DNA from: Parcubacteria group bacterium Gr01-1014_8 | GTDB taxonomy: Bacteria; Patescibacteriota; Minisyncoccia; Phycocordibacterales; UBA2100 | Reading direction: 5' to 3' | Assembly (NCBI GenBank): GCA_007376385.1 | Contig: VMGC01000002.1 | Span: 136,372-200,371, forward strand | Length of the DNA: 64,000 nucleotides | In this document: positions 1,090 through 63,863 of the stretch, in pieces | Numbering within the stretch: the first letter of the stretch is position 1 | Layout: the number at the start of each line of letters is the position of its first letter | Position numbers and translations under genes: made by a program | The notes under the pieces: generated by a model | Seen by the model: the letters and a program-made list of their open reading frames with translations, nothing else | What the model was told of the DNA's origin: nothing | Database searches by the model: none

Positions 1090-2079
1090 ATGCAAAAAGA
1101 GATAGGAATGATCGGACTTGGAAAAATGGGAGGGAACATGGCGCGACAGCTCGTGGAAAAAGGATGGAATGTGCACGGTATGGATGCGGACCCTGCGACA
1201 ACACAAAAACTCGGAAAGGAGGGTATACAAGGAGCGTACTCGATACACGAACTTGTCTCGAAACTGAAAGCCCCGCGTGTGGTATGGCTCATGGTACCCG
1301 CAGGGAAACCGGAAGACGATCTGCTGTTTGGCAATGACCGACATCATGACCGACATCGTAAGTCGAACACATTGACCGACTTACGATATCGGTCACGGTC
1401 ATCCGTAAAAGATGCGGGGCTTGTACGTTTACTTTCACGGGGCGACGTTATCATTGATGGGGGTAATTCTTATTACAAAGATTCAATATCGCGCGCGAAG
1501 AAAGTCGCAACATTCGGCATCAAATTCATTGACGTTGGATTTTCTGGCGGCCCCGCGGGGGCTCGAAACGGAGGCTGTCTCATGATCGGCGGGGATGAAA
1601 GCTCGTTCAAGCGGCTCGAACCGTTGTTCAAAGACCTTGCGCGCGACAATGGGTATCAATTCTTCAAAGGTGTTGGAGCGGGCCATTTTGTAAAGATGGT
1701 CCACAACGGCATCGAATACGGCATGATGCAGGCGTTGGGGGAAGGTTTTGCGATGTTAAAAAAGACACCGTTCAAACTGGATCTCACGCGTGTTGCGGAT
1801 ATATACAATAATGGAAGCGTTATCGAGTCGCGCTTGGTAGGATGGATGAAGAAAGCGTTTCAAGAACATGGAGAAGACTTGAAGCAGGTCTCAGGTTCGG
1901 TTGGGCACACTGGCGAGGGCGAATGGACGGCAAAGACTGCGCGAGAAATGAAAATTCCGGCAAAAATAATTGGGGAATCGTACAAGTTTCGCGTTCAGTC
2001 AAAGAAAAAGCCGTCGTTTACCGGCAAAGTCGTGTCCGCATTGCGTGGACAGTTCGGAGGACATAATATTAAAGAGTAA
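1090..2079 (+). CDS. gnd: 6-phosphogluconate dehydrogenase (decarboxylating), short approximately 300-aa form, carrying an in-frame approximately 23-aa insertion
   Basis: MIGLGKMGGNMA Rossmann motif; VVWLMVPAG...IIDGGNSYY; GIEYGMMQA; 3 bp after zwf stop. Confidence 0.85.
   Translation: MQKEIGMIGLGKMGGNMARQLVEKGWNVHGMDADPATTQKLGKEGIQGAYSIHELVSKLKAPRVVWLMVPAGKPEDDLLFGNDRHHDRHRKSNTLTDLRYRSRSSVKDAGLVRLLSRGDVIIDGGNSYYKDSISRAKKVATFGIKFIDVGFSGGPAGARNGGCLMIGGDESSFKRLEPLFKDLARDNGYQFFKGVGAGHFVKMVHNGIEYGMMQALGEGFAMLKKTPFKLDLTRVADIYNNGSVIESRLVGWMKKAFQEHGEDLKQVSGSVGHTGEGEWTAKTAREMKIPAKIIGESYKFRVQSKKKPSFTGKVVSALRGQFGGHNIKE
1334..1403. repeat. Palindromic insertion inside gnd coding sequence (18-bp stem GACCGACATCGTAAGTCG / CGACTTACGATATCGGTC, one mismatch, preceded by a tandem TGACCGACATC duplication); in-frame
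   Basis: Read directly from the sequence; the protein region between the VPAG and GDVIIDGGNS motifs is about 23 aa longer than in typical short-form 6PGDH. Confidence 0.5.
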
Positions 2080-8437: not shown

Positions 8438-8872
8438 ATGGAAGACAGGCCCTTTGTCGGTATTGGCGTAACGATACTTAAAGATGGAAAAATTCTCCTC
8501 GGCAAAAGAGTATCAACGTATGGGACCGGAGAATATCAAACGCCTGGCGGACATCTTGAGCCTAAAGAAGCTTTTGAGGCATGTGCGCGGCGAGAAACCT
8601 TGGAGGAGTGCGGACTCGAAATAGGCTCAATCCGTTTTCAATTTGTAGCAAATGCCGTAGGGTATGGTCTCGTGCATTACGTTCATATTGGTTTGATAAC
8701 GGAATGGAAGGCAGGTGAACCTAAAAATCTTGAACCTACAAAATGCGAAGGATGGGATTGGTACTCTCTTGACGCATTGCCGGAGCCTCTTTTTGTATAC
8801 ACGAAATGGTCTATAGAGGCACATCAAACAGGACTCAATTATTTCGATAGTGAGGCCCGACCAGCGAAATAA
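8438..8872 (+). CDS. NUDIX hydrolase
   Basis: Nudix box GGHLEPKEAFEACARRETLEECGL. Confidence 0.8.
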   Translation: MEDRPFVGIGVTILKDGKILLGKRVSTYGTGEYQTPGGHLEPKEAFEACARRETLEECGLEIGSIRFQFVANAVGYGLVHYVHIGLITEWKAGEPKNLEPTKCEGWDWYSLDALPEPLFVYTKWSIEAHQTGLNYFDSEARPAK

Positions 8873-8980
8873 AGGTTCCTCGGAGCTTGCTCCGAGGTAT
8901 TATGGAGCTCGCTTCGCTCGCGCAGTCTCGCAGCAGAGCTGCGAGGTATTGAACCTGTGTTTGCTCCTCGGCACGGAAAT
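8867..8980. repeat. Dispersed palindromic repeat, copy 1 (expanded variant with a nested 48-bp insertion; contains the TAA stop of the NUDIX gene)
   Basis: AAATAAAGGTTCCTCGGAGCTTGCTCCGAGGTAT...TGAACCTGTGTTTGCTCCTCGGCACGGAAAT matches copies at 22252, 29962 and 51309. Confidence 0.6.
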
Positions 8981-9076
8981 GCAACAGAGTACTTTTGCAT
9001 TTCTCTCGCAATGCTCGCAAATAAAATGTGAAGGCATCTTGACTCGATTTCGTGCACGGGTAGAGTATGGGGGTTC

Positions 9077-22239: not shown

Positions 22240-22251
22240 AATTACTCCTGC

Positions 22252-22317
22252 TTTATTTCCGAGCCGAGGAGCAAACACAGGTTCAATACCTCGGAGCTTG
22301 CTCCGAAGAACCTTTAT
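22252..22317. repeat. Dispersed palindromic repeat, copy 2 (orientation opposite to copies 1 and 4)
   Basis: ATTTCCGAGCCGAGGAGCAAACACAGGTTCAATACCTCGGAGCTTGCTCCGAAGAACCTTTAT. Confidence 0.6.
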
Positions 22318-22891
22318 CTTTGCGAGGGCGAATAAATACAAATATATCATTCGCCGAGTAGGTGTCATCGGAATTTGCTCGAAGCTCGAGTTGACGTTGT
22401 CCCGGAAGAAGAAATCGCATGGGACCAGCGATAGAAGAAAGTCCAAAAACATGAGACGTATGGGCGCTGACTGGAATAGCTTGCATACCAAGTACCAGGT
22501 GTTCGCCAGGAGGTTGATTACGATATTGGATACGAAGCAATGGGCCTACTTGAGGTGGACATAATTCGAGCCCATGTGCCACAGCAATTTCACAAATATA
22601 TTTGTAGAGTCCCGTGCCATGCTTTATTTTGTCGTAATCGAAACCCAGGCTTCGTGCTGACAGTGTCACTAATTCTACTTCTCTGCTTTTTGGCGCGTCT
22701 TGAAATGATGCGGTTTCAAGGAGTTGATGCGCGTCTTGAGTGATGTAACATCCAGCATCATTGAGCTTCTTCCGGAAAGACGATGCGGATTCCGAATGGG
22801 CAGGAAGCATGAGGCGCATGAGAACTGGCAATTTCTCTATTGATGTATCAGCATGAGCCGTATCCGTATTGGACTTGGGATAGTTTTTCAT
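22283..22891 (-). CDS. Hypothetical protein; its 3' end runs into repeat copy 2
   Basis: ORF only. Confidence 0.4.
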   Translation of the reverse strand: MKNYPKSNTDTAHADTSIEKLPVLMRLMLPAHSESASSFRKKLNDAGCYITQDAHQLLETASFQDAPKSREVELVTLSARSLGFDYDKIKHGTGLYKYICEIAVAHGLELCPPQVGPLLRIQYRNQPPGEHLVLGMQAIPVSAHTSHVFGLSSIAGPMRFLLPGQRQLELRANSDDTYSANDIFVFIRPRKDKGSSEQAPRY

Positions 22892-26788: not shown

Positions 26789-27820
26789 CTACCGCGCTCG
26801 CGGGATGCCTCCAGTGTCAACAGACTGCCCGTCAGTGGATAGAGCAGGCTCTGATACCGATGGTTCGCTCGCCGGCGTTCCGCCGGTTCCTTCTGCGCTG
26901 GTCGTCGTTGCTTCGACTATCGAAGGAGTACCCACGGTAGAATTTGTGGATCGGTTTGCTTTTGGTGCAGCCTTTGAGGGCGCACTTGGCACTAGAGGCT
27001 CATTTATTTCAGGTAATTGCTCTGTCTCCTCCATCACACGGGATGGATCCATGGGCTCTTCCTCTGGGAGAGCAGTCTGGATGCCGAGCATCAGACCAGC
27101 ACCGACGAGACCGGCAAGAATGTGCATATATGTGCCTCCGTTGCTCCGAACTGACGCGAGCGCGTGGGGCAAGAGGTCATGCAAGACAACAGACATAAAT
27201 CCTCCGGCGGCTATACCAGAAAATAGTGCGACGATCCAAGTCACTGATGACAGTGTGCTTGCAAGGAAAAAGCCGATGAGAATGGTGGAGGAAACGAGAA
27301 AACTCCGGGTCAGGGCTCCTTTATTGGAATATCCAGCCCCGCGTAGCACAAAGTACTCTGAGACCTCCTGCACCGTCTCATGGAGAACGACGCCGAGCGT
27401 TGCTGCAAGGCCGATGTACCAATTCGTCTCAAAAGCACCCACAAGCAGAATACCGTCCCCAATGTTATGCAGAGCGTCGCTAAAGAGCACGCTACGACCC
27501 TCTATGGGAGTGTGAGTGTGACTATTGTCAACGTCGTGGTGGTGGTGCTTTGTTGGAAAAATATAGTGAATTCCTTCCATAAGCGTTGCACCGATAAGTA
27601 CCGATATGACAGCGACCACCCAGCCGCCTGCGCGTACGGCCTCCGATGCAAGGTCAAATGCGACAAGAACAAACACGCCAGCAGAAAAGGTTGCCAAATA
27701 GGTCAGATATCGTTGCATCCACTGTCCCAGTTTTCCTGCGGAAAAGATGACCCCAATAAGAGATATCAGCATGACAAGAAGCGATGCGAGAAAAGCAGCG
27801 CTCGCAGCTGAAAAGTCCAT
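26789..27820 (-). CDS. ZIP-family divalent metal transporter with an approximately 90-aa Ser/Thr/Pro/Ala-rich C-terminal tail
   Basis: ZIP helices with the HNIGDG...GVVLHE pattern and a His-rich loop (HHHHDVDNSHTH); TACACT lies 10 nt upstream of the ATG. Confidence 0.8.
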   Translation of the reverse strand: MDFSAASAAFLASLLVMLISLIGVIFSAGKLGQWMQRYLTYLATFSAGVFVLVAFDLASEAVRAGGWVVAVISVLIGATLMEGIHYIFPTKHHHHDVDNSHTHTPIEGRSVLFSDALHNIGDGILLVGAFETNWYIGLAATLGVVLHETVQEVSEYFVLRGAGYSNKGALTRSFLVSSTILIGFFLASTLSSVTWIVALFSGIAAGGFMSVVLHDLLPHALASVRSNGGTYMHILAGLVGAGLMLGIQTALPEEEPMDPSRVMEETEQLPEINEPLVPSAPSKAAPKANRSTNSTVGTPSIVEATTTSAEGTGGTPASEPSVSEPALSTDGQSVDTGGIPRAR

Positions 27821-27832
27821 AATGGGTGTGAG

Positions 27833-27939
27833 TGTACCCCATGAGATAAGGACCCGCTATAGGCTATTCACAGGAAGCTACTTTTTGAAAGAAGAATTAC
27901 TCTAGCGAACGCCACCCGGTCTATCTCACGGGGTGTACC
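27833..27939. promoter_or_regulatory. Inverted pair of the TATCTCAYGGGGT(A/G)TAC motif (RC copy at 27833-27847, direct copy at 27923-27939) plus the direct repeat GGCTATTCACAG(G)AAG (27871-27889 and 27961-27977); the left copy doubles as the -10 region of the ZIP gene
   Basis: Read directly; the same motif pair is found at 52979-53085 and 60663-60768. Confidence 0.5.
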
Positions 27940-28090
27940 CCAGAGAGTAAAGACTCGCTACCGGCTATTCACAGAAGATATGCTGACAACAAAGTATGCA
28001 CATCATGCGGACCGTTTGCCTCTATCTACTATTGACACAGGGCCGGGTATGTATCCGAGTATTTTCCTTAAAACTTGACGGAACAAGTGA

Positions 28091-28346: not shown

Positions 28347-29606
28347 ATGACGTTGTTACGTTTGGCACGTGTGGGAGGTGTTGCGGCTTTTGCTGTTCTC
28401 TTGTTCACACTCGTTTCGTTTGTGGGAAACCAGCGTCTTGCTTACGCAGATGAGGTGCCCGTTTCGGGCTCTGACATTGTGTGCGACACGTATCGTCAAC
28501 TGCAGGAACAGGGATTGCCGATCCCTCCAGGACTCGATGTGAGCGGTTGTGAAGGAGGTGGGGGAGGCGGCGGTGGTGGCGAACCGCCACTACCAACGGT
28601 TACAGAGTGCATAGACGGTATTGATAACGACGGAGATGGACGTACCGATTTTCTTCCGATATACGGCGACCCCGATTGTGATAACTTCTCTGATGATAGC
28701 GAGGCGGCGAGCGGAGGAGGCGGCGGTGGCGGTTCTACTCCAGCATGTGCCGATGGCATTGATAACGACGGCGATGGGCTCGTAGATAGTGTTGACCCGG
28801 GCTGCTCAGACACTTCCGATACTGACGAGGCCGATCCTACGGGGGGCGGCGTAGGAGGTGGTGGAGGTGGCGGAGGCGGAGGCCCCGCAGCGGCGTGCGA
28901 GGACAGCATAGACAATGACCTCGATGGTCTTAAAGACATGCAAGACCCAGGGTGTGAAAATGCTTCTGACAACGACGAAACCAACGGTTCTGGTGGAGGA
29001 GGAGGCGGCGGGGGAGGTGGCGAGGCAGCGACGACAACGGCACCAACTCCAGAAATTCTCGGCGCATCAACGCCAGCACAGGAACTTTCGTGCGACTCCT
29101 ACCTGACGGCATTCATTCGCTTCGGCGGAAAGAATGATGCAGACCAGGTTATGCGCCTCCAGAAAGTACTCAAAGATTACGAGAAGGCGGATGTGAATGA
29201 AAATGGTACCTACGATGCTGCAACTCTCAAGGCAGTACATGCATTCCAAACAAAGTATGCCGATGAAATTCTTACACCATGGGGTATCAAGAGCTCGACA
29301 GGCTATGTGTATCTCACGACGCGAAAGAAAGTGAATGAAATTCGGTGCGAGAATAAGAAGACATTTCCGCTTTCGGAAGAAGAACAGAAGAAAGTCGAGG
29401 AAACACGGGTTTCTGCGGCAGTCAGGGACATCGGCACAGACGCATCTCCCGCAAAACCAGCGGAGCCAGCAAAACCTGCAGTAGTAAAAGCTAAAGATGT
29501 AACGGACAGGACCGCCGATTCATCGTCAAAAGACGAGACAGTGCAGGTGAGCGGATTGAAGAGGGTGTGGGATTTCCTCGGCAGAATGTTCAACAGAGCG
29601 CGCTAA
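28347..29606 (+). CDS. Secreted protein with four C-x-DGIDNDGDG-x-D...DPGC Ca/metal-binding repeats (MopE-like) separated by poly-Gly linkers, plus a C-terminal peptidoglycan-binding (PG_binding_1-like) domain
   Basis: Signal/TM N-terminus; repeats TECIDGIDNDGDGRTD, ACADGIDNDGDGLVD, ACEDSIDNDLDGLKD; G8-12 runs; C-terminus LQKVLKDY...TLKAVHAFQTKYADEILTPWGIKSSTGYVY. Confidence 0.7.
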   Translation: MTLLRLARVGGVAAFAVLLFTLVSFVGNQRLAYADEVPVSGSDIVCDTYRQLQEQGLPIPPGLDVSGCEGGGGGGGGGEPPLPTVTECIDGIDNDGDGRTDFLPIYGDPDCDNFSDDSEAASGGGGGGGSTPACADGIDNDGDGLVDSVDPGCSDTSDTDEADPTGGGVGGGGGGGGGGPAAACEDSIDNDLDGLKDMQDPGCENASDNDETNGSGGGGGGGGGGEAATTTAPTPEILGASTPAQELSCDSYLTAFIRFGGKNDADQVMRLQKVLKDYEKADVNENGTYDAATLKAVHAFQTKYADEILTPWGIKSSTGYVYLTTRKKVNEIRCENKKTFPLSEEEQKKVEETRVSAAVRDIGTDASPAKPAEPAKPAVVKAKDVTDRTADSSSKDETVQVSGLKRVWDFLGRMFNRAR

Positions 29607-29884: not shown

Positions 29885-29922
29885 GGGAAGATAAAAAAGG
29901 CCGCGTTGAGCGGTTTTTTTAT
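29885..29922. terminator. Bidirectional terminator-like hairpin (AAAAAAGGCCGCGTTGAGCGGTTTTTTT)
   Basis: A-run/stem/T-run read directly. Confidence 0.5.
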
Positions 29923-29961
29923 TGGCGACGTAGAGCGAGTGAAATGAACGTGTACTCATGT

Positions 29962-30033
29962 TCATTTCCGAGCCGAGGAGCCAACATAGGGTCGAATGCC
30001 CCGCGGCTTGCCCGCGGAATGAATACCCTTTAT
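29962..30033. repeat. Dispersed palindromic repeat, copy 3 (most diverged)
   Basis: ATTTCCGAGCCGAGGAGCCAACATAGGGTCGAATGCC...CCTTTAT. Confidence 0.5.
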
Positions 30034-30458
30034 TGCAACTCATTATAAAAAAATATCAATGGTGTTTGACAACAAGCATGAATACGTATCGAAATACTTT
30101 TCCACATGGCTAATTCATTGACACTCCACGAGAACGCGCGATAATTCGCCTACGTTTCGTCGCGTGCGCAAAATGCGATAAAGCGAGGGGAACCAGCGGA
30201 CAATATGTCCGTTGAGAACATTTTTTTTACTCACAGCTGTCTTTTTGAAATGAAGAGACGAGGCATCGCTGACCGTGATGCGTCGTTTTTTATTATGCAA
30301 ATGGACGACTGAAGTCCATGGAGCGGCTTATTTCCATGAAATGAGCCGCTCCGTGAACTGCAAGGTTCATGAGAAAGGTCGAGTTCTGCATTGCGCCGTC
30401 CGTACGGAGGCACAATGTCAGGTTTATCAAAACTTATCAACATGAAAAATTCAAAGAT

Positions 30459-31355
30459 ATGACTAAGACTATGAAAATCGGTGCAGTTCTTGCAACAAGC
30501 GCGATGGTTTTGTCGCAGTTCGCAGCAATTCCTGCATACGCATGTGAGGACTGGTGCTGGGGCGAAGGAAGCTCTGACGACAACAGCGTCTACATAAAGG
30601 TTTCGAACTCAGGCACAATCTACAACGAAACTAAAGCTAAGGCAGACACTGGCGACAACGATGCCGGCGGAAGCTACGGCGGCGACGGCGGCTCTGCTGG
30701 AGACGGTGGCGACGGCGGCGAAGCTGATGTGGAAGGCGGTGTTAATTGGTGCGGAGAGTGCAGCGACGGATCGGACAGCGAAGCAAACGGAGGCGACGGC
30801 GGCAACGGCGGCGACTCGAACGGCGGCGATGCAGGTCCGGGTGGGCTCGTAGACACTGGGGATGCTGACGCAAACGCAGGAACAGTCAACACACTCAACA
30901 CGACCGATATCGCAGTTGAGGGATGTGGCTGTGAGGATGACCAGGATGAGTGCGGATGCATTCCTCCATGGCTCCGACGCGACGTTGACAACAGCGTCCG
31001 CGTGAAGGTCCACAACGACGGCACGATCAACAACGAAACTAAAGCTAAGGCAGACACTGGCGACAACGATGCCGGCGGAAGCTACGGCGGCGATGGTGGC
31101 GGCGATTGTCACTGTGACGGCGGTGGCGACGGTGGCGACGGCGGTGACGCTGAAGTTGGCGACGACGAAGAGGGCTGTGGTTGTGAATGGGACATCGGTG
31201 GCGGCGGCACAGCAAACGGCGGCGACGGCGGCGACGGCGGAGACGCTGACGGCGGCGACGGCGACGTAGGAGGCACGATCCGAACGGGCGACGCTCGATC
31301 GGACGCTGGCACTGTGAACGTGATGAACACGACTCTTGTTCGTGTAACTCGCTAG
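30459..31355 (+). CDS. Secreted acidic Gly/Asp-rich, Cys-containing repeat protein (two approximately 130-aa modules with a near-identical 65-bp DNA duplication)
   Basis: Signal peptide MKIGAVLATSAMVLSQFAAIPAYA; repeated NETKAKADTGDNDAGGSYGGDGG and TGDA..AGTVN..NTT blocks; CGEC/CGCE/CHCD Cys pairs. Confidence 0.6.
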   Translation: MTKTMKIGAVLATSAMVLSQFAAIPAYACEDWCWGEGSSDDNSVYIKVSNSGTIYNETKAKADTGDNDAGGSYGGDGGSAGDGGDGGEADVEGGVNWCGECSDGSDSEANGGDGGNGGDSNGGDAGPGGLVDTGDADANAGTVNTLNTTDIAVEGCGCEDDQDECGCIPPWLRRDVDNSVRVKVHNDGTINNETKAKADTGDNDAGGSYGGDGGGDCHCDGGGDGGDGGDAEVGDDEEGCGCEWDIGGGGTANGGDGGDGGDADGGDGDVGGTIRTGDARSDAGTVNVMNTTLVRVTR

Positions 31356-37524: not shown

Positions 37525-37695
37525 ACCACTCCTTCGGGGTTGGGTGAAAGTCCCAATCGGCGGTATAGCCCGCGAGTTCTTAGGGACACGATTTGGTGAG
37601 ATTCCAAAGCCGACCGTACAGTCGGGATGAAAGAAGGAAGCGAGGCACCCTTGTTGGATGCTTGCGTGGTAACCCCGATGGATCGGGGTTTTTTA
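37525..37695 (+). ncRNA. FMN riboswitch (RFN element) with a terminator expression platform (AACCCCGATGGATCGGGGTTTTTT at 37671-37694)
   Basis: GGGTGAAAGTCCCAATCGGCGGTATAGCCCGCGAG...GATTTGGTGAGATTCCAAAGCCGAC...AGTCGGGATGAAAGAAGG matches conserved FMN aptamer blocks; upstream of the rib operon. Confidence 0.85.
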
Positions 37696-49298: not shown

Positions 49299-51314
49299 AT
49301 GGCAACATTCAAACTCGAATCATCATATAAGCCTGCTGGGGACCAACCGCAGGCAATACAAGCCCTGTACGATGGGCTGAAAAAAGGTAAGCGGGATCAG
49401 ACGCTTCTTGGCGTAACTGGGTCCGGCAAGACGTATACGATGGCGAGTATCATCGAAAAAATCGGCAAGCCAACGCTTGTCATTGCGCACAATAAGACGC
49501 TTGCGGCGCAGCTCGCATCCGAATATCGCGAGTTCTTTCCCACGCATGCGGTCCACTATTTCGTCTCATACTACGACTTCTATCAGCCGGAAGCATATGT
49601 GGCAGTTTCCGATACGTACATAGAGAAGGAAGCGCAGGTAAACGAGGATATCGAACGTTTGCGCCATGCTGCTACGCAGGCACTCTTAACGCGAAAGGAC
49701 GTTATCGTCGTCGCTTCTGTTTCTTGCATTTACGGTCTTGGAAGCCCCATTGAATATGAAAAAGTTAATTTGAAATTGCAGAAGGGAGAAACAATGACGC
49801 GGACAGGACTTACAAGAAAACTCGTATCAATGCATTTTGAGCGAACCCCTGGGGATCTGTCTCCGGGAACATTTCGGCCACTCGGAGCAGCCGTTGAGAT
49901 AATGCCGGCGAATGAGCGAGTCATTTATCGCATCGGCCTCTCGAGCGGAAAAATCGCGAACATCGAGGACATTGACCCGATTACACGTGTTATTAAAGGC
50001 GAAGAAGAAGCTGTATTTATTTTTCCCGCACGCCACTATGTTACGCCGGAGAATGTCGTGGAAGCGGCGCTTGCGGACATTGAGGCTGAACTCGAGGCAC
50101 AATTGAAGCATTTGAACGACGGCGGAAAAATACTTGAAGCGGAACGTTTGAAGCGGCGCACACGGCAAGATCTCACGATGATACGAGAGTTTGGATTTTG
50201 CAGCGGCATCGAGAACTACTCGCGTCATTTTGATAGGCGAAAACCAGGAGAGCCACCTTACACGTTGCTTTCGTACTTCCCGAAAAAGGCGGACGGTACT
50301 CCGGATTTTCTTACGGTCATAGACGAGTCGCACGTGACGGTGCCGCAGATAGGAGCGATGTATGCAGGGGATAGGGCGAGAAAATTGACCCTTATCGAGC
50401 ATGGGTTCAGACTTCCCAGCGCAGTAGATAATCGTCCGCTTAAATTCGAGGAGTTTTTGGAAAATACCGGACAGACGCTGTATACGAGCGCTACGCCATC
50501 TCTGTATGAATTGAATAAAAGCGGGAAGCCAGTCGAAATGATAGTAAGACCGACTGGCCTCTTGGACCCAGAGATACTAGTGAGACCGATAATAGGGAGA
50601 GGAGACTACGAAGGCCAAGTCCGCGATTTCATCAAAGAAGCAGAGGCGGTAACAAAACGAGGCGCGCGGTCGCTAGTGACCGTCCTCACCAAGAAAATGG
50701 CAGAAGACCTTGCGCAATTTCTCGTAGAACGCGGAATAAAAGCGCGCTATGTGCATAGCGACGTCCTTACTATCGAGCGCATTGAGATTCTCACAGATTT
50801 TAGGAAAGGTGTGTTCGACGTCTTGGTAGGTGTGAACTTGCTTCGTGAAGGATTGGACCTCCCTGAAGTTGAGCTGGTGGGAATTTTAGATGCTGATAAA
50901 GAAGGATTTCTTCGCTCGGAAACCTCACTTATACAGACCATGGGTCGCGCCGCACGAAATGTGAATGGACGTGTGCTTCTATACGCAGACAATATTACTG
51001 GCTCAATGGAGCGGGCAATAGGCGAGACGAATCGCCGCAGAGGGGTACAGGCAGAGTACAACAAAAAACACGGCATTACGCCGAAAACGATAGAAAAAAA
51101 GATACGAGATATCACGGGCGATATTGCGAGGGTGCGAGAACGCGCAATTAAGGAGCTAGCGGACATGGATACTGCTGCGTACGGCGGCGATAAGAGGAAA
51201 ATGATAAAGGATAAACGCCGCCAGATGCATGAAGCGGCCGATAGATTGGATTTCGAGACGGCGGCACTGCTGCGCGATGAGATACGCATCCTTGAACACG
51301 GCGTTTCAAAATAA
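49299..51314 (+). CDS. uvrB: Excinuclease ABC subunit B
   Basis: GVTGSGKT Walker A, helicase motifs, C-terminal UVR domain (FETAALLRDEIRILE). Confidence 0.9.
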   Translation: MATFKLESSYKPAGDQPQAIQALYDGLKKGKRDQTLLGVTGSGKTYTMASIIEKIGKPTLVIAHNKTLAAQLASEYREFFPTHAVHYFVSYYDFYQPEAYVAVSDTYIEKEAQVNEDIERLRHAATQALLTRKDVIVVASVSCIYGLGSPIEYEKVNLKLQKGETMTRTGLTRKLVSMHFERTPGDLSPGTFRPLGAAVEIMPANERVIYRIGLSSGKIANIEDIDPITRVIKGEEEAVFIFPARHYVTPENVVEAALADIEAELEAQLKHLNDGGKILEAERLKRRTRQDLTMIREFGFCSGIENYSRHFDRRKPGEPPYTLLSYFPKKADGTPDFLTVIDESHVTVPQIGAMYAGDRARKLTLIEHGFRLPSAVDNRPLKFEEFLENTGQTLYTSATPSLYELNKSGKPVEMIVRPTGLLDPEILVRPIIGRGDYEGQVRDFIKEAEAVTKRGARSLVTVLTKKMAEDLAQFLVERGIKARYVHSDVLTIERIEILTDFRKGVFDVLVGVNLLREGLDLPEVELVGILDADKEGFLRSETSLIQTMGRAARNVNGRVLLYADNITGSMERAIGETNRRRGVQAEYNKKHGITPKTIEKKIRDITGDIARVRERAIKELADMDTAAYGGDKRKMIKDKRRQMHEAADRLDFETAALLRDEIRILEHGVSK

Positions 51315-51371
51315 AGGTTCCTTGAAGCAAGCTCCGAGAGCTCGAACTCGTGTTTGTTCCTCGGCTCGGAC
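51309..51371. repeat. Dispersed palindromic repeat, copy 4 (contains the uvrB TAA stop)
   Basis: AAATAAAGGTTCCTTGAAGCAAGCTCCGAGAGCTCGAACTCGTGTTTGTTCCTCGGCTCGGACAT. Confidence 0.6.
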
Positions 51372-51450
51372 ATGCATATAAGTACACATGCATATCACTC
51401 GCTCTACGTCGCAAATAAGGCATAATGAAAAGCAATTTAATACTGGTGCC

Positions 51451-63787: not shown

Positions 63788-63863
63788 GGGCCCATAGCTC
63801 AGTTGGTAGAGCACCTCATTTGCAATGAGGGGGTCAGCGGTTCGAATCCGCTTGGGTCCACCA
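63788..63863 (+). tRNA. tRNA-Ala (anticodon TGC), CCA encoded
   Basis: Cloverleaf GGGCCCA/TGGGTCC acceptor stem with the G3:U70 Ala identity pair, TTTGCAA anticodon loop, GGTTCGAATCC T-arm. Confidence 0.9.

What the first reader, a model, noticed from the sequence alone, without database searches (positions are those of the whole stretch)
1334..1403. In-frame 70-bp palindromic insertion inside the 6-phosphogluconate dehydrogenase gene
Between the conserved VPAG and GDVIIDGGNS blocks, gnd carries about 23 extra codons. The DNA is an 18-bp inverted repeat (GACCGACATCGTAAGTCG / CGACTTACGATATCGGTC) with an 11-nt loop and a flanking tandem TGACCGACATC duplication. This looks like a footprint of a small mobile hairpin element (MITE/REP-like) that landed in-frame in a housekeeping enzyme and was tolerated. 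It may instead be a programmed structural or regulatory hairpin inside the mRNA. It is not related to the 65-bp repeat family elsewhere in the window.
Basis: seen in the sequence. Interest (0 to 1): 0.5.

Follow-up and report, generated by a model that had tools for sequence, protein, structure and literature searches.

The report
In-frame palindromic repeat element in gnd
The hairpin-forming insert in this candidate-phyla bacterium's 6-phosphogluconate dehydrogenase gene is a worn copy of a 51-bp palindromic repeat element that also sits in-frame in another housekeeping gene of a relative, much like the Rickettsia palindromic elements, and is read through as a floppy surface loop.

Summary
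Window 1334-1402 holds the longest local hairpin in the 64 kb: a 19-bp stem with one mismatch, plus 12-nt and 6-nt tandem duplications that add a 7-bp outer stem. It lies in-frame in the short-form 6PGDH gene (1090-2079) of Parcubacteria bacterium Gr01-1014_8 and adds 26 codons.

The insert is not private to this gene. Two other related gnd genes (73-76% protein identity outside the insert) carry it at the same codon; 117 of the 120 best homologs lack it. In one relative it is a perfect 24-bp/3-nt-loop palindrome of 51 nt, which is 17 codons. The same MAG has a second perfect copy in-frame inside leuS.

Only one reading frame is stop-free, and it is the same on both strands. It encodes the charged peptide DR[HL]RKSVxxTDLRxRS. 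AlphaFold2 models the insert as a disordered loop between well-predicted elements.

Best reading: a small palindromic repeat element copied into coding DNA and tolerated, analogous to RPEs and MITEs. It is not a member of those families.

Unexplained: its third-codon positions are far more conserved (0.79) than the rest of gnd (0.46). I found no target-site duplication, no transposase and only two insertion sites, so the mobilisation mechanism is unknown.

The parts
1090..2079 (+). gnd: short-form decarboxylating 6-phosphogluconate dehydrogenase, 329 aa; host gene of the insert
   Evidence: ORF. Pfam NAD_binding_2 and 6PGD. 100% identical to the NCBI protein of Parcubacteria group bacterium Gr01-1014_8. 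Closest folds are 6PGDH structures.
1333..1410 (+). Whole extra segment relative to the closest insert-free ortholog: 26 codons, residues 82-107, NDRHHDRHRKSNTLTDLRYRSRSSVK
   Evidence: Protein and codon alignments. Residues 84-106 have pLDDT below 50 and no secondary structure, and sit between helices 73-80 and 111-114. The solved homolog 4e21 bridges this stretch with 8 residues.
1334..1402 (+). The palindromic element proper, 69 nt: the 51-nt family unit plus a 12-nt and a 6-nt duplication and 6 substitutions
   Evidence: Alignment to the 51-nt copies in L004, L002, L001 and L005. RNA fold z = -6.5.
1334..1357 (+). Tandem duplication ATGACCGACATC x2 in the left arm (adds HHDR/HDRH)
   Evidence: D3, 100% identical copies. 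Absent from the L001, L002 and L004 copies.
1347..1365 (+). Left arm of the main inverted repeat: TGACCGACATCGTAAGTCG
1366..1376 (+). 11-nt loop AACACATTGAC. In relatives this is GTCA-NNN-TGAC, paired down to a 3-nt loop, so the hairpin tip has decayed here.
1377..1395 (+). Right arm of the main inverted repeat: CGACTTACGATATCGGTCA, with one mismatch to the left arm
1390..1401 (+). Tandem duplication CGGTCA x2 in the right arm (RSRS). It is complementary to the start of the left-arm duplication and forms a 7-bp outer stem, 1334-1340 with 1396-1402.
   Evidence: Sequence. Minimum-free-energy structures. Arm comparison.

Best explanation
The segment is a copy of a small palindromic repeat element. 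Its consensus is 51 nt: ATGACCGAC-W-TCGTAAGTCGGTCA-NNN-TGACCGACTTACGA-W-GTCGGTCAT. That gives 24-bp arms and a 3-nt loop, and each arm is itself a small hairpin.

Shown:
- The element was copied into at least two unrelated coding sequences in a small clade of Kaiserbacteria-like Parcubacteria.
- It is 17 codons long.
- It has one stop-free frame, identical on both strands, so an in-frame copy adds a short, highly charged peptide rather than breaking the gene.
- In 6PGDH that peptide falls in the linker between the VPAG strand and the GDVIIDGGNS strand of the Rossmann domain, and is predicted to be a disordered loop.

Inferred:
- The gnd insertion predates the split of three lineages.
- The window copy has since lost pairing at the hairpin tip. 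It also gained a 12-nt duplication in the left arm and a complementary 6-nt duplication in the right arm. All changes are multiples of three, which fits a segment that is translated.
- The mirrored changes fit hairpin-templated (template-switch) mutation.
- How the element is copied is unknown. The absence of target-site duplications together with the hairpin form suggests a single-strand, hairpin-recognising mechanism. That is a guess.
For: - Palindrome and duplications are real and non-random.
- The insert is absent from 117 of the 120 best homologs. It is present at the same codon in P0002 (locus L001) and in P0005 (locus L002; the full gene is on L004).
- On L002/L004 it is a perfect 24-bp palindrome of 51 nt.
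- A genome-collection scan found a second perfect copy in the same MAG (CAYJVW01) on another contig. It is in-frame in LeuRS residues 823-838.
- None of the 120 best LeuRS homologs carries the element peptide, and an alignment of the top 40 shows no element insert.
- Only one of three frames is open, the same on both strands, and it gives DR[HL]RKSVxxTDLRxRS.
- The insert is modelled as a disordered loop (pLDDT below 50) between confident elements, and the core fold matches 6PGDH.
- An identical window sequence appears in two further assembled contigs.
- The closest precedent, Rickettsia palindromic elements inserted in-frame in ORFs, is documented (PMC10969869; PMC1166351).
Against: - Only two insertion sites are known (gnd and leuS).
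- There is one copy in about 72 kb of this genome. Only one species-representative genome of 185,579 matched the strict pattern.
- No related copies turned up in the JGI metagenome or viral scans.
- No target-site duplication is visible at either site.
- No transposase was found among 51 window ORFs or 8 ORFs next to the relatives' copies.
- "Same genome" for the gnd and leuS copies rests on MAG binning.
- The element's third-codon positions are much more conserved than the rest of gnd (0.79 vs 0.46, P about 4e-5). A passive relic would not show this.
- The gene tree does not resolve whether the three insert-bearing genes form a clade.
Confidence: 0.68

Rival explanations
1. The hairpin is a selected nucleic-acid element, and the coding insertion is only its vehicle. 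It could be an mRNA structure, for example an RNase III or RNA-binding-protein site, or a translational pause. It could also be a DNA site of the form 2 x TGACCGAC-N7-GTCGGTCA bound by a dimeric protein. On this reading it was copied in once per gene and has been kept by host-level selection since.
For: - The conservation is at nucleotide level, not protein level. Third-position identity is 0.79 in the 16 element codons against 0.46 gene-wide. This is the top-ranked of 308 windows, and all three codon positions are about equally conserved.
- Flanking codons are as diverged as the rest of the gene.
- The two perfect palindromes in one MAG differ by a mirrored A/T swap that keeps pairing.
- Every copy still folds as a long hairpin, with z from -6.5 to -11.9.
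Against: - Pairing is not strictly kept. The window copy lost the tip and the L001 copy has an inverted arm core. Eight of 24 pairs are broken in at least one copy, and only one pair covaries.
- Most 6PGDH and LeuRS genes of related bacteria work without it.
- No Rfam family matches.
- A 24-bp perfect stem inside an ORF would be expected to be costly (general knowledge, not tested).
Confidence: 0.2
2. The insert is a local, gene-specific invention. On this reading it is a lineage-specific loop of 6PGDH that grew by duplication and inversion of neighbouring codons, is palindromic by accident of that history, and was never mobile.
For: - The region is a hot spot for length variation in CPR 6PGDHs. 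Other homologs have 4-8 extra residues at the same point and 9-21 residues ten positions upstream.
- The window copy does show local tandem duplications.
Against: - A nearly identical 51-nt sequence, differing at 4 of 51 positions, sits inside leuS on another contig. It cannot have arisen there independently.
- The flanking gnd codons show no similarity to the element.
Confidence: 0.05
3. The segment is not part of the mature protein. It would be skipped by programmed translational bypassing, as in T4 gene 60 or the mitochondrial 'byp' hairpin elements, or be removed from the RNA.
For: It is a very stable hairpin inside an ORF, as in bypass elements.
Against: - All five copies are in the single open frame with no stop codon.
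- The secondary duplications are 12 and 6 nt, so the frame is kept.
- There are no matching take-off and landing codons and no stop after a take-off codon (read).
- No intron-like RNA family matches.
Confidence: 0.04
4. The insert is an assembly or amplification artefact, that is, a fold-back chimera.
For: Palindromic junctions are a known artefact class (general knowledge).
Against: - The element is at the same codon in diverged genes from different projects: GCA_030697485.1, Logan ERR4904392, the ERP125453 MAG and this genome. Each has its own substitutions.
- The window version is identical in two further contigs.
- It is in-frame in all of them.
Confidence: 0.01

Closest known systems
Rickettsia palindromic elements (RPEs)
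   Same: Both are short palindromic repeats that invade protein-coding genes in-frame. Both add a conserved peptide whose position is compatible with the fold and function of the host protein, and both occur in housekeeping genes of small-genome bacteria (PMC10969869; PMC1166351). Here the hosts are gnd and leuS, with one open frame and a disordered loop.
   Different: RPEs are about 100-150 bp, belong to several families with tens to hundreds of copies per genome, and are specific to Rickettsia. This element is 51 bp, a perfect palindrome with a 3-nt loop, known at only two sites, and from Parcubacteria. There is no evidence of sequence relationship, and none could be tested here.
[quoted passage not shown]
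   Same: Both are small, non-autonomous and bounded by inverted repeats. MITEs can also create in-frame fusions (PMC10969869).
   Different: MITEs normally have target-site duplications, a non-palindromic interior and a partner IS with matching ends. Here there is no duplication at either site. The whole unit is one palindrome, and no transposase was seen in the sequence available.
REP/BIME elements mobilised by RAYT (Y1/HUH) transposases
   Same: Both are short hairpin-forming repeats without target-site duplications. The single-strand, hairpin-recognising mechanism is the kind I suspect here (my inference from general knowledge).
   Different: REPs are extragenic, imperfect, abundant and associated with a RAYT gene. 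This element is intragenic, can be perfect, is rare, and no Y1 transposase was found in the window.
[quoted passage not shown]
   Same: Both are coding DNA with dyad symmetry that is moved between and within genomes (PMC2996958).
   Different: PARCELs are 25-residue amphipathic units in tandem arrays in surface or membrane proteins of unknown function. This element is a single charged 16-17-residue unit inside enzymes.
Translational-bypass hairpin inserts (T4 gene 60; mitochondrial 'byps')
   Same: Both are stable hairpins inserted inside ORFs. Byps are also mobile (my recollection; no paper was read for this).
   Different: Bypass elements interrupt the frame and need take-off and landing codons. 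This element is always in-frame and open.

Membership tests
Rickettsia palindromic elements (RPE) | Palindromic, hairpin-forming repeat | tested here: met
   Arms of 19-24 bp; fold z from -6.5 to -11.9.
Rickettsia palindromic elements (RPE) | In-frame insertion in ORFs of unrelated genes, with the encoded peptide tolerated by the fold | tested here: met
   gnd and leuS, both in the same open frame. Disordered loop in the 6PGDH model.
Rickettsia palindromic elements (RPE) | Many dispersed copies per genome (44 to 728 reported) | tested here: inconclusive
   Two copies in MAG CAYJVW01 by a strict pattern. One copy in about 72 kb of this genome. Whole genomes could not be scanned with a tolerant model.
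Rickettsia palindromic elements (RPE) | Sequence homology to an RPE family, about 100-150 bp, Rickettsia host | tested here: not met
   The element is 51 bp and the host is Parcubacteria. RPE models were not available, so homology itself was not tested.
MITE | Terminal inverted repeats | tested here: met
   Trivially met, because the whole unit is an inverted repeat.
MITE | Target-site duplication flanking the element | tested here: not met
   Flanks are TTTGGTA|...|CCGCGCGG in gnd and GCGCCTCC|...|CTGAAAAA in leuS. No direct repeat is present.
MITE | Partner autonomous IS or transposase with matching ends | tested here: inconclusive
   None among 51 window ORFs and 8 ORFs on L004/L005.
REP/BIME-RAYT | Extragenic location and high copy number | tested here: not met
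   All five known copies are inside coding sequences.
REP/BIME-RAYT | RAYT (Y1 transposase) gene in the genome | tested here: inconclusive
   No PF01797-type hit in the window ORFs. The whole genome was not available.
Programmed translational bypass element | Frame interrupted or stop after the take-off codon, with matching take-off and landing codons | tested here: not met
   The frame is open and continuous in all copies, and indels are multiples of 3.
Known structured RNA family (Rfam) | Match at the gathering score | tested here: not met
   Only two sub-threshold miRNA-like hairpin hits, about 20 bits against gathering scores of 90-100. Nothing at this locus in the whole-window scan.

The most novel reading that the evidence does not exclude
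The 51-nt palindrome is not a decaying passenger but an actively maintained hairpin module of these CPR bacteria. It could be kept by host-level selection as an RNA or DNA signal embedded in housekeeping ORFs. Alternatively it could be kept perfect by a hairpin-specific copying or repair process, a self-renewing and unusually small mobile element with no target-site duplication and no conventional transposase. Either route would explain why it stays 84-88% identical, and in one lineage perfectly palindromic, at an orthologous site whose synonymous positions are saturated.
Probability: 0.25. Interest if true: 0.65.

Novelty: new member of a known kind. Interest (0 to 1): 0.42.

Why it matters
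This extends the phenomenon of selfish palindromic DNA living inside protein-coding genes, best known from Rickettsia, to the Candidate Phyla Radiation. That is another group of small-genome, host-dependent bacteria. Four full-text literature searches found no such report for CPR.

There are two practical consequences. Unexplained lineage-specific loops in CPR enzymes may be repeat-element insertions rather than adaptations. Such inserts also mark permissive surface sites in the host proteins.

The unexpectedly strong nucleotide conservation of the element offers a concrete, testable question: are such hairpins maintained by selection or by a copying mechanism?

Tried and rejected
- **Peptide search for more carriers.** A concatenated profile gave no hit at E <= 10. 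Other host genes could therefore not be found this way.
- **Metagenome scan.** A tolerant double-hairpin pattern gave one GC-rich non-coding look-alike without the CGTAAG core, judged unrelated.
- **Viral-contig scans.** Three patterns gave nothing or chance matches lacking the outer arms.
- **Phage and plasmid blastn.** No match.
- **Rfam.** Nothing meaningful.
- **Transposase search.** 51 window ORFs and 8 neighbouring ORFs in relatives gave none.
- **leuS in this genome.** There is no leuS in the window, so I could not check whether this genome's leuS carries a copy.
- **Gene tree.** A bootstrap neighbour-joining tree, meant to decide between a single gain and a loss in P0003, was unresolved. 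The three carriers were monophyletic in 4 of 100 replicates and P0001+P0003 grouped in 38 of 100. A first attempt timed out.
- **Covariation.** The five copies give one compensated pair only, which is too few sequences for statistics.
- **Rejected readings.** Assembly artefact, translational bypass or intron, and local de novo origin; the reasons are given under the rival explanations.

Full report
**Observation**

The window's second ORF (1090-2079, +, 329 aa) is a short-form decarboxylating 6-phosphogluconate dehydrogenase. Pfam finds NAD_binding_2 and 6PGD. It lies in a zwf-gnd-glpX-fba cluster and is 100% identical to the protein of 'Parcubacteria group bacterium Gr01-1014_8'.

The features inside it are these:
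- Positions 1347-1365 and 1377-1395 form a 19-nt inverted repeat with one mismatch and an 11-nt loop.
- ATGACCGACATC is tandemly duplicated at 1334-1357.
- CGGTCA is tandemly duplicated at 1390-1401.
- The two duplications are complementary, so the predicted RNA structure has an extra 7-bp outer stem, 1334-1340 with 1396-1402.

The 70-nt RNA folds at -35.5 kcal/mol against -15.6 +/- 3.1 for shuffles, z = -6.5. The arm is expected 0.00 times by chance in the window. This is the longest local hairpin in the 64 kb; the next is a 16-bp terminator-like stem, and shuffled sequence reaches 11-14 bp. Two other assembled contigs carry an identical gnd sequence.

**Distribution among orthologs**

Of the 120 best homologs, 85 have the canonical 11 residues between LFG and the GD.IIDGGNS strand. 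Only three carry the element peptide: the window protein, P0002 and P0005. Both relatives have it at exactly the same codon.

Relative to the closest insert-free ortholog (P0003/L003, 78.5% identical outside the insert), the window gene has 26 extra codons (1333-1410). The other two carriers have 20. Gene order is conserved in all four loci.

A neighbour-joining tree groups the three carriers with P0003 and P0004 but does not resolve the order within that group. A single gain in a common ancestor is the simplest reading, but it is not proven.

**The ancestral form**

In the P0005 lineage (L002, and the complete gene on L004) the insert core is a perfect palindrome of 51 nt: ATGACCGACATCGTAAGTCGGTCA-AGA-TGACCGACTTACGATGTCGGTCAT. 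It folds at -43.2 kcal/mol, z = -11.9. Each arm is itself a small hairpin, GACCGAC-N7-GTCGGTC.

In L001 the 7-nt core of the left arm is inverted. The unit there reads as two direct 24-nt hairpin repeats.

The window copy equals the 51-nt unit plus the 12-nt and 6-nt duplications and six substitutions. Five of those substitutions open the hairpin tip, enlarging the loop from 3 to 11 nt.

**Evidence that it is a repeated, copied element**

I scanned one genome per species (185,579 genomes) for AAGTCG-N7-TGACCGACTTACGA. This gave two loci, both in MAG CAYJVW01.
- One is the gnd copy (L004).
- The other (L005, 310-360) is a second perfect 51-nt palindrome. It differs from the gnd copy at four positions: the three loop bases plus a mirrored A/T swap.

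The L005 copy is in-frame in a leucyl-tRNA synthetase gene, which has the Pfam tRNA-synt_1, editing and anticodon-binding domains. It encodes DRLRKSVKVTDLRSRS at residues 823-838, just ahead of the anticodon-binding domain. None of the 120 best LeuRS homologs (at most 71% identity) carries the element peptide, and an alignment of the top 40 shows no element insert.

An identical 51-nt sequence in two unrelated genes cannot be convergent, so it must have been copied. One caveat applies: that the two contigs belong to one genome rests on binning. Both do have Kaiserbacteria-like best hits.

**Why it is tolerated**

The unit is 17 codons long. Two of its three frames contain stop codons. The open frame is the same on both strands and yields a charged, hydrophilic peptide, DR[HL]RKSVxxTDLRxRS. 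All five copies use that frame, and the window's secondary duplications are multiples of three. This is what translation-level selection would leave.

An AlphaFold2 model has mean pLDDT 84.9. It gives pLDDT below 50 and no secondary structure for residues 84-106, between confidently modelled helices 73-80 and 111-114. The solved homolog 4e21 bridges the same gap with 8 residues, and the best fold matches are 6PGDH structures. The loop's distance from the active site was not measured.

**What does not fit a passive relic**

Among the three carriers, third-codon-position identity is 0.46 across gnd, which is near saturation. In the 16 element codons it is 0.79. That is the highest of all 308 sliding windows, with permutation P about 4e-5. 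The codons immediately outside the element are as diverged as the rest of the gene.

In this palindrome and frame, third positions pair with third positions. Protein-level selection therefore cannot explain the pattern (my derivation from the sequence). The cause must be one of two things: selection on the nucleic acid, or homogenisation from other family copies.

Structural conservation is not strict. Eight of 24 pairs are broken in at least one copy, and only one pair (10/42) shows a compensated change.

The following point to hairpin-templated mutation. This is an inference, not something shown here.
- The mirrored duplications in the window copy.
- The arm-core inversion in L001.
- The mirrored A/T swap between the two perfect copies.

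**Mechanism of copying**

This is unknown.
- No target-site duplication is visible at either site.
- No transposase domain was found in 51 window ORFs or in 8 ORFs beside the relatives' copies.
- No further copy exists in about 72 kb of this genome or in the other loci.
- Phage, plasmid, viral-contig and JGI-metagenome searches gave nothing related.
- No Rfam family matches.

**Comparison with known systems**

The behaviour is that of Rickettsia palindromic elements, which are palindromic repeats inserted in-frame in housekeeping ORFs and compatible with the protein fold (PMC10969869; PMC1166351).

Membership in that family is not supported. This element is a third of the size, perfectly palindromic, rare, and from a different phylum.

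The MITE criteria fail on the target-site duplication and are inconclusive on a partner IS. The REP criteria (extragenic location, abundance) are not met either, and the translational-bypass criteria are not met. Four full-text literature searches found no report of such elements in CPR/Patescibacteria.

**Verdict**

I file the segment as a new family of a known kind, an in-frame palindromic repeat element. Confidence in that reading is about 0.68.

There is roughly a 0.2-0.25 chance that the hairpin is actively maintained for a nucleic-acid-level role or by an unusual self-renewing mechanism. That would be the more interesting outcome.

Noticed in passing
window 8867-8987, 22248-22320, 29919-29995, 51308-51418: A separate dispersed repeat family of about 65-120 nt with an internal hairpin (CCTCGGAGCttgCTCCGAGG). 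Copies lie at or just past gene ends, in both orientations. There is no sequence relation to the gnd element.
   Followed up: partly
L005 2-2824 (minus strand), LeuRS residues 244-404: The leucyl-tRNA synthetase that hosts the second element copy also contains a Ser_hydrolase (PF06821) domain, inserted ahead of its editing domain. This is an unusual architecture for LeuRS.
   Followed up: no
6PGDH homologs P0028, P0051, P0062, P0076, P0078, P0081 (alignment A1, columns 111-131): Other CPR 6PGDHs carry a different insert of 9-21 residues, rich in Lys, Pro, Ala and Gly. It sits directly after the VPA strand, about ten residues upstream of the palindromic insert. This part of the Rossmann domain is a general hot spot for insertions. 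Their DNA was not examined for palindromes.
   Followed up: no
L001 1971-2021: In this relative the 7-nt core of the left arm is the reverse complement of the family consensus (TTACGAA against TTCGTAA). That converts the long palindrome into two direct 24-nt hairpin units. It looks like an inversion between the short inner inverted repeats.
   Followed up: partly
L006 422-470 (metagenome contig VFQT010028181.1): A GC-rich contig has a look-alike double hairpin with the same 9-bp stem: ATGACCGACaaggcttGTCGGTCAT, followed by GACCGACaggcTGTCGG. It lies in non-coding DNA upstream of a response-regulator gene. It lacks the family's CGTAAG core, so it is probably unrelated.
   Followed up: partly
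window 30369-31355: This ORF has Gly/Asp-rich degenerate tandem repeats (GGCGACGGCGGC-type) and a 148-nt internal duplication at 30579-30726 and 30987-31134. It has no Pfam match.
   Followed up: no
window 37526-37642 and 63788-63863: An FMN riboswitch (104 bits) lies ahead of the riboflavin operon ribE/ribH/ribBA/ribD. There is a tRNA-Ala(TGC) near the window end.
   Followed up: no
window 27832-27873 and 27933-27974: Two 42-nt direct repeats, 79% identical and 101 nt apart, lie in the gap between ORFs 26789-27820 and 28347-29606 (D4). Their nature is unknown.
   Followed up: no
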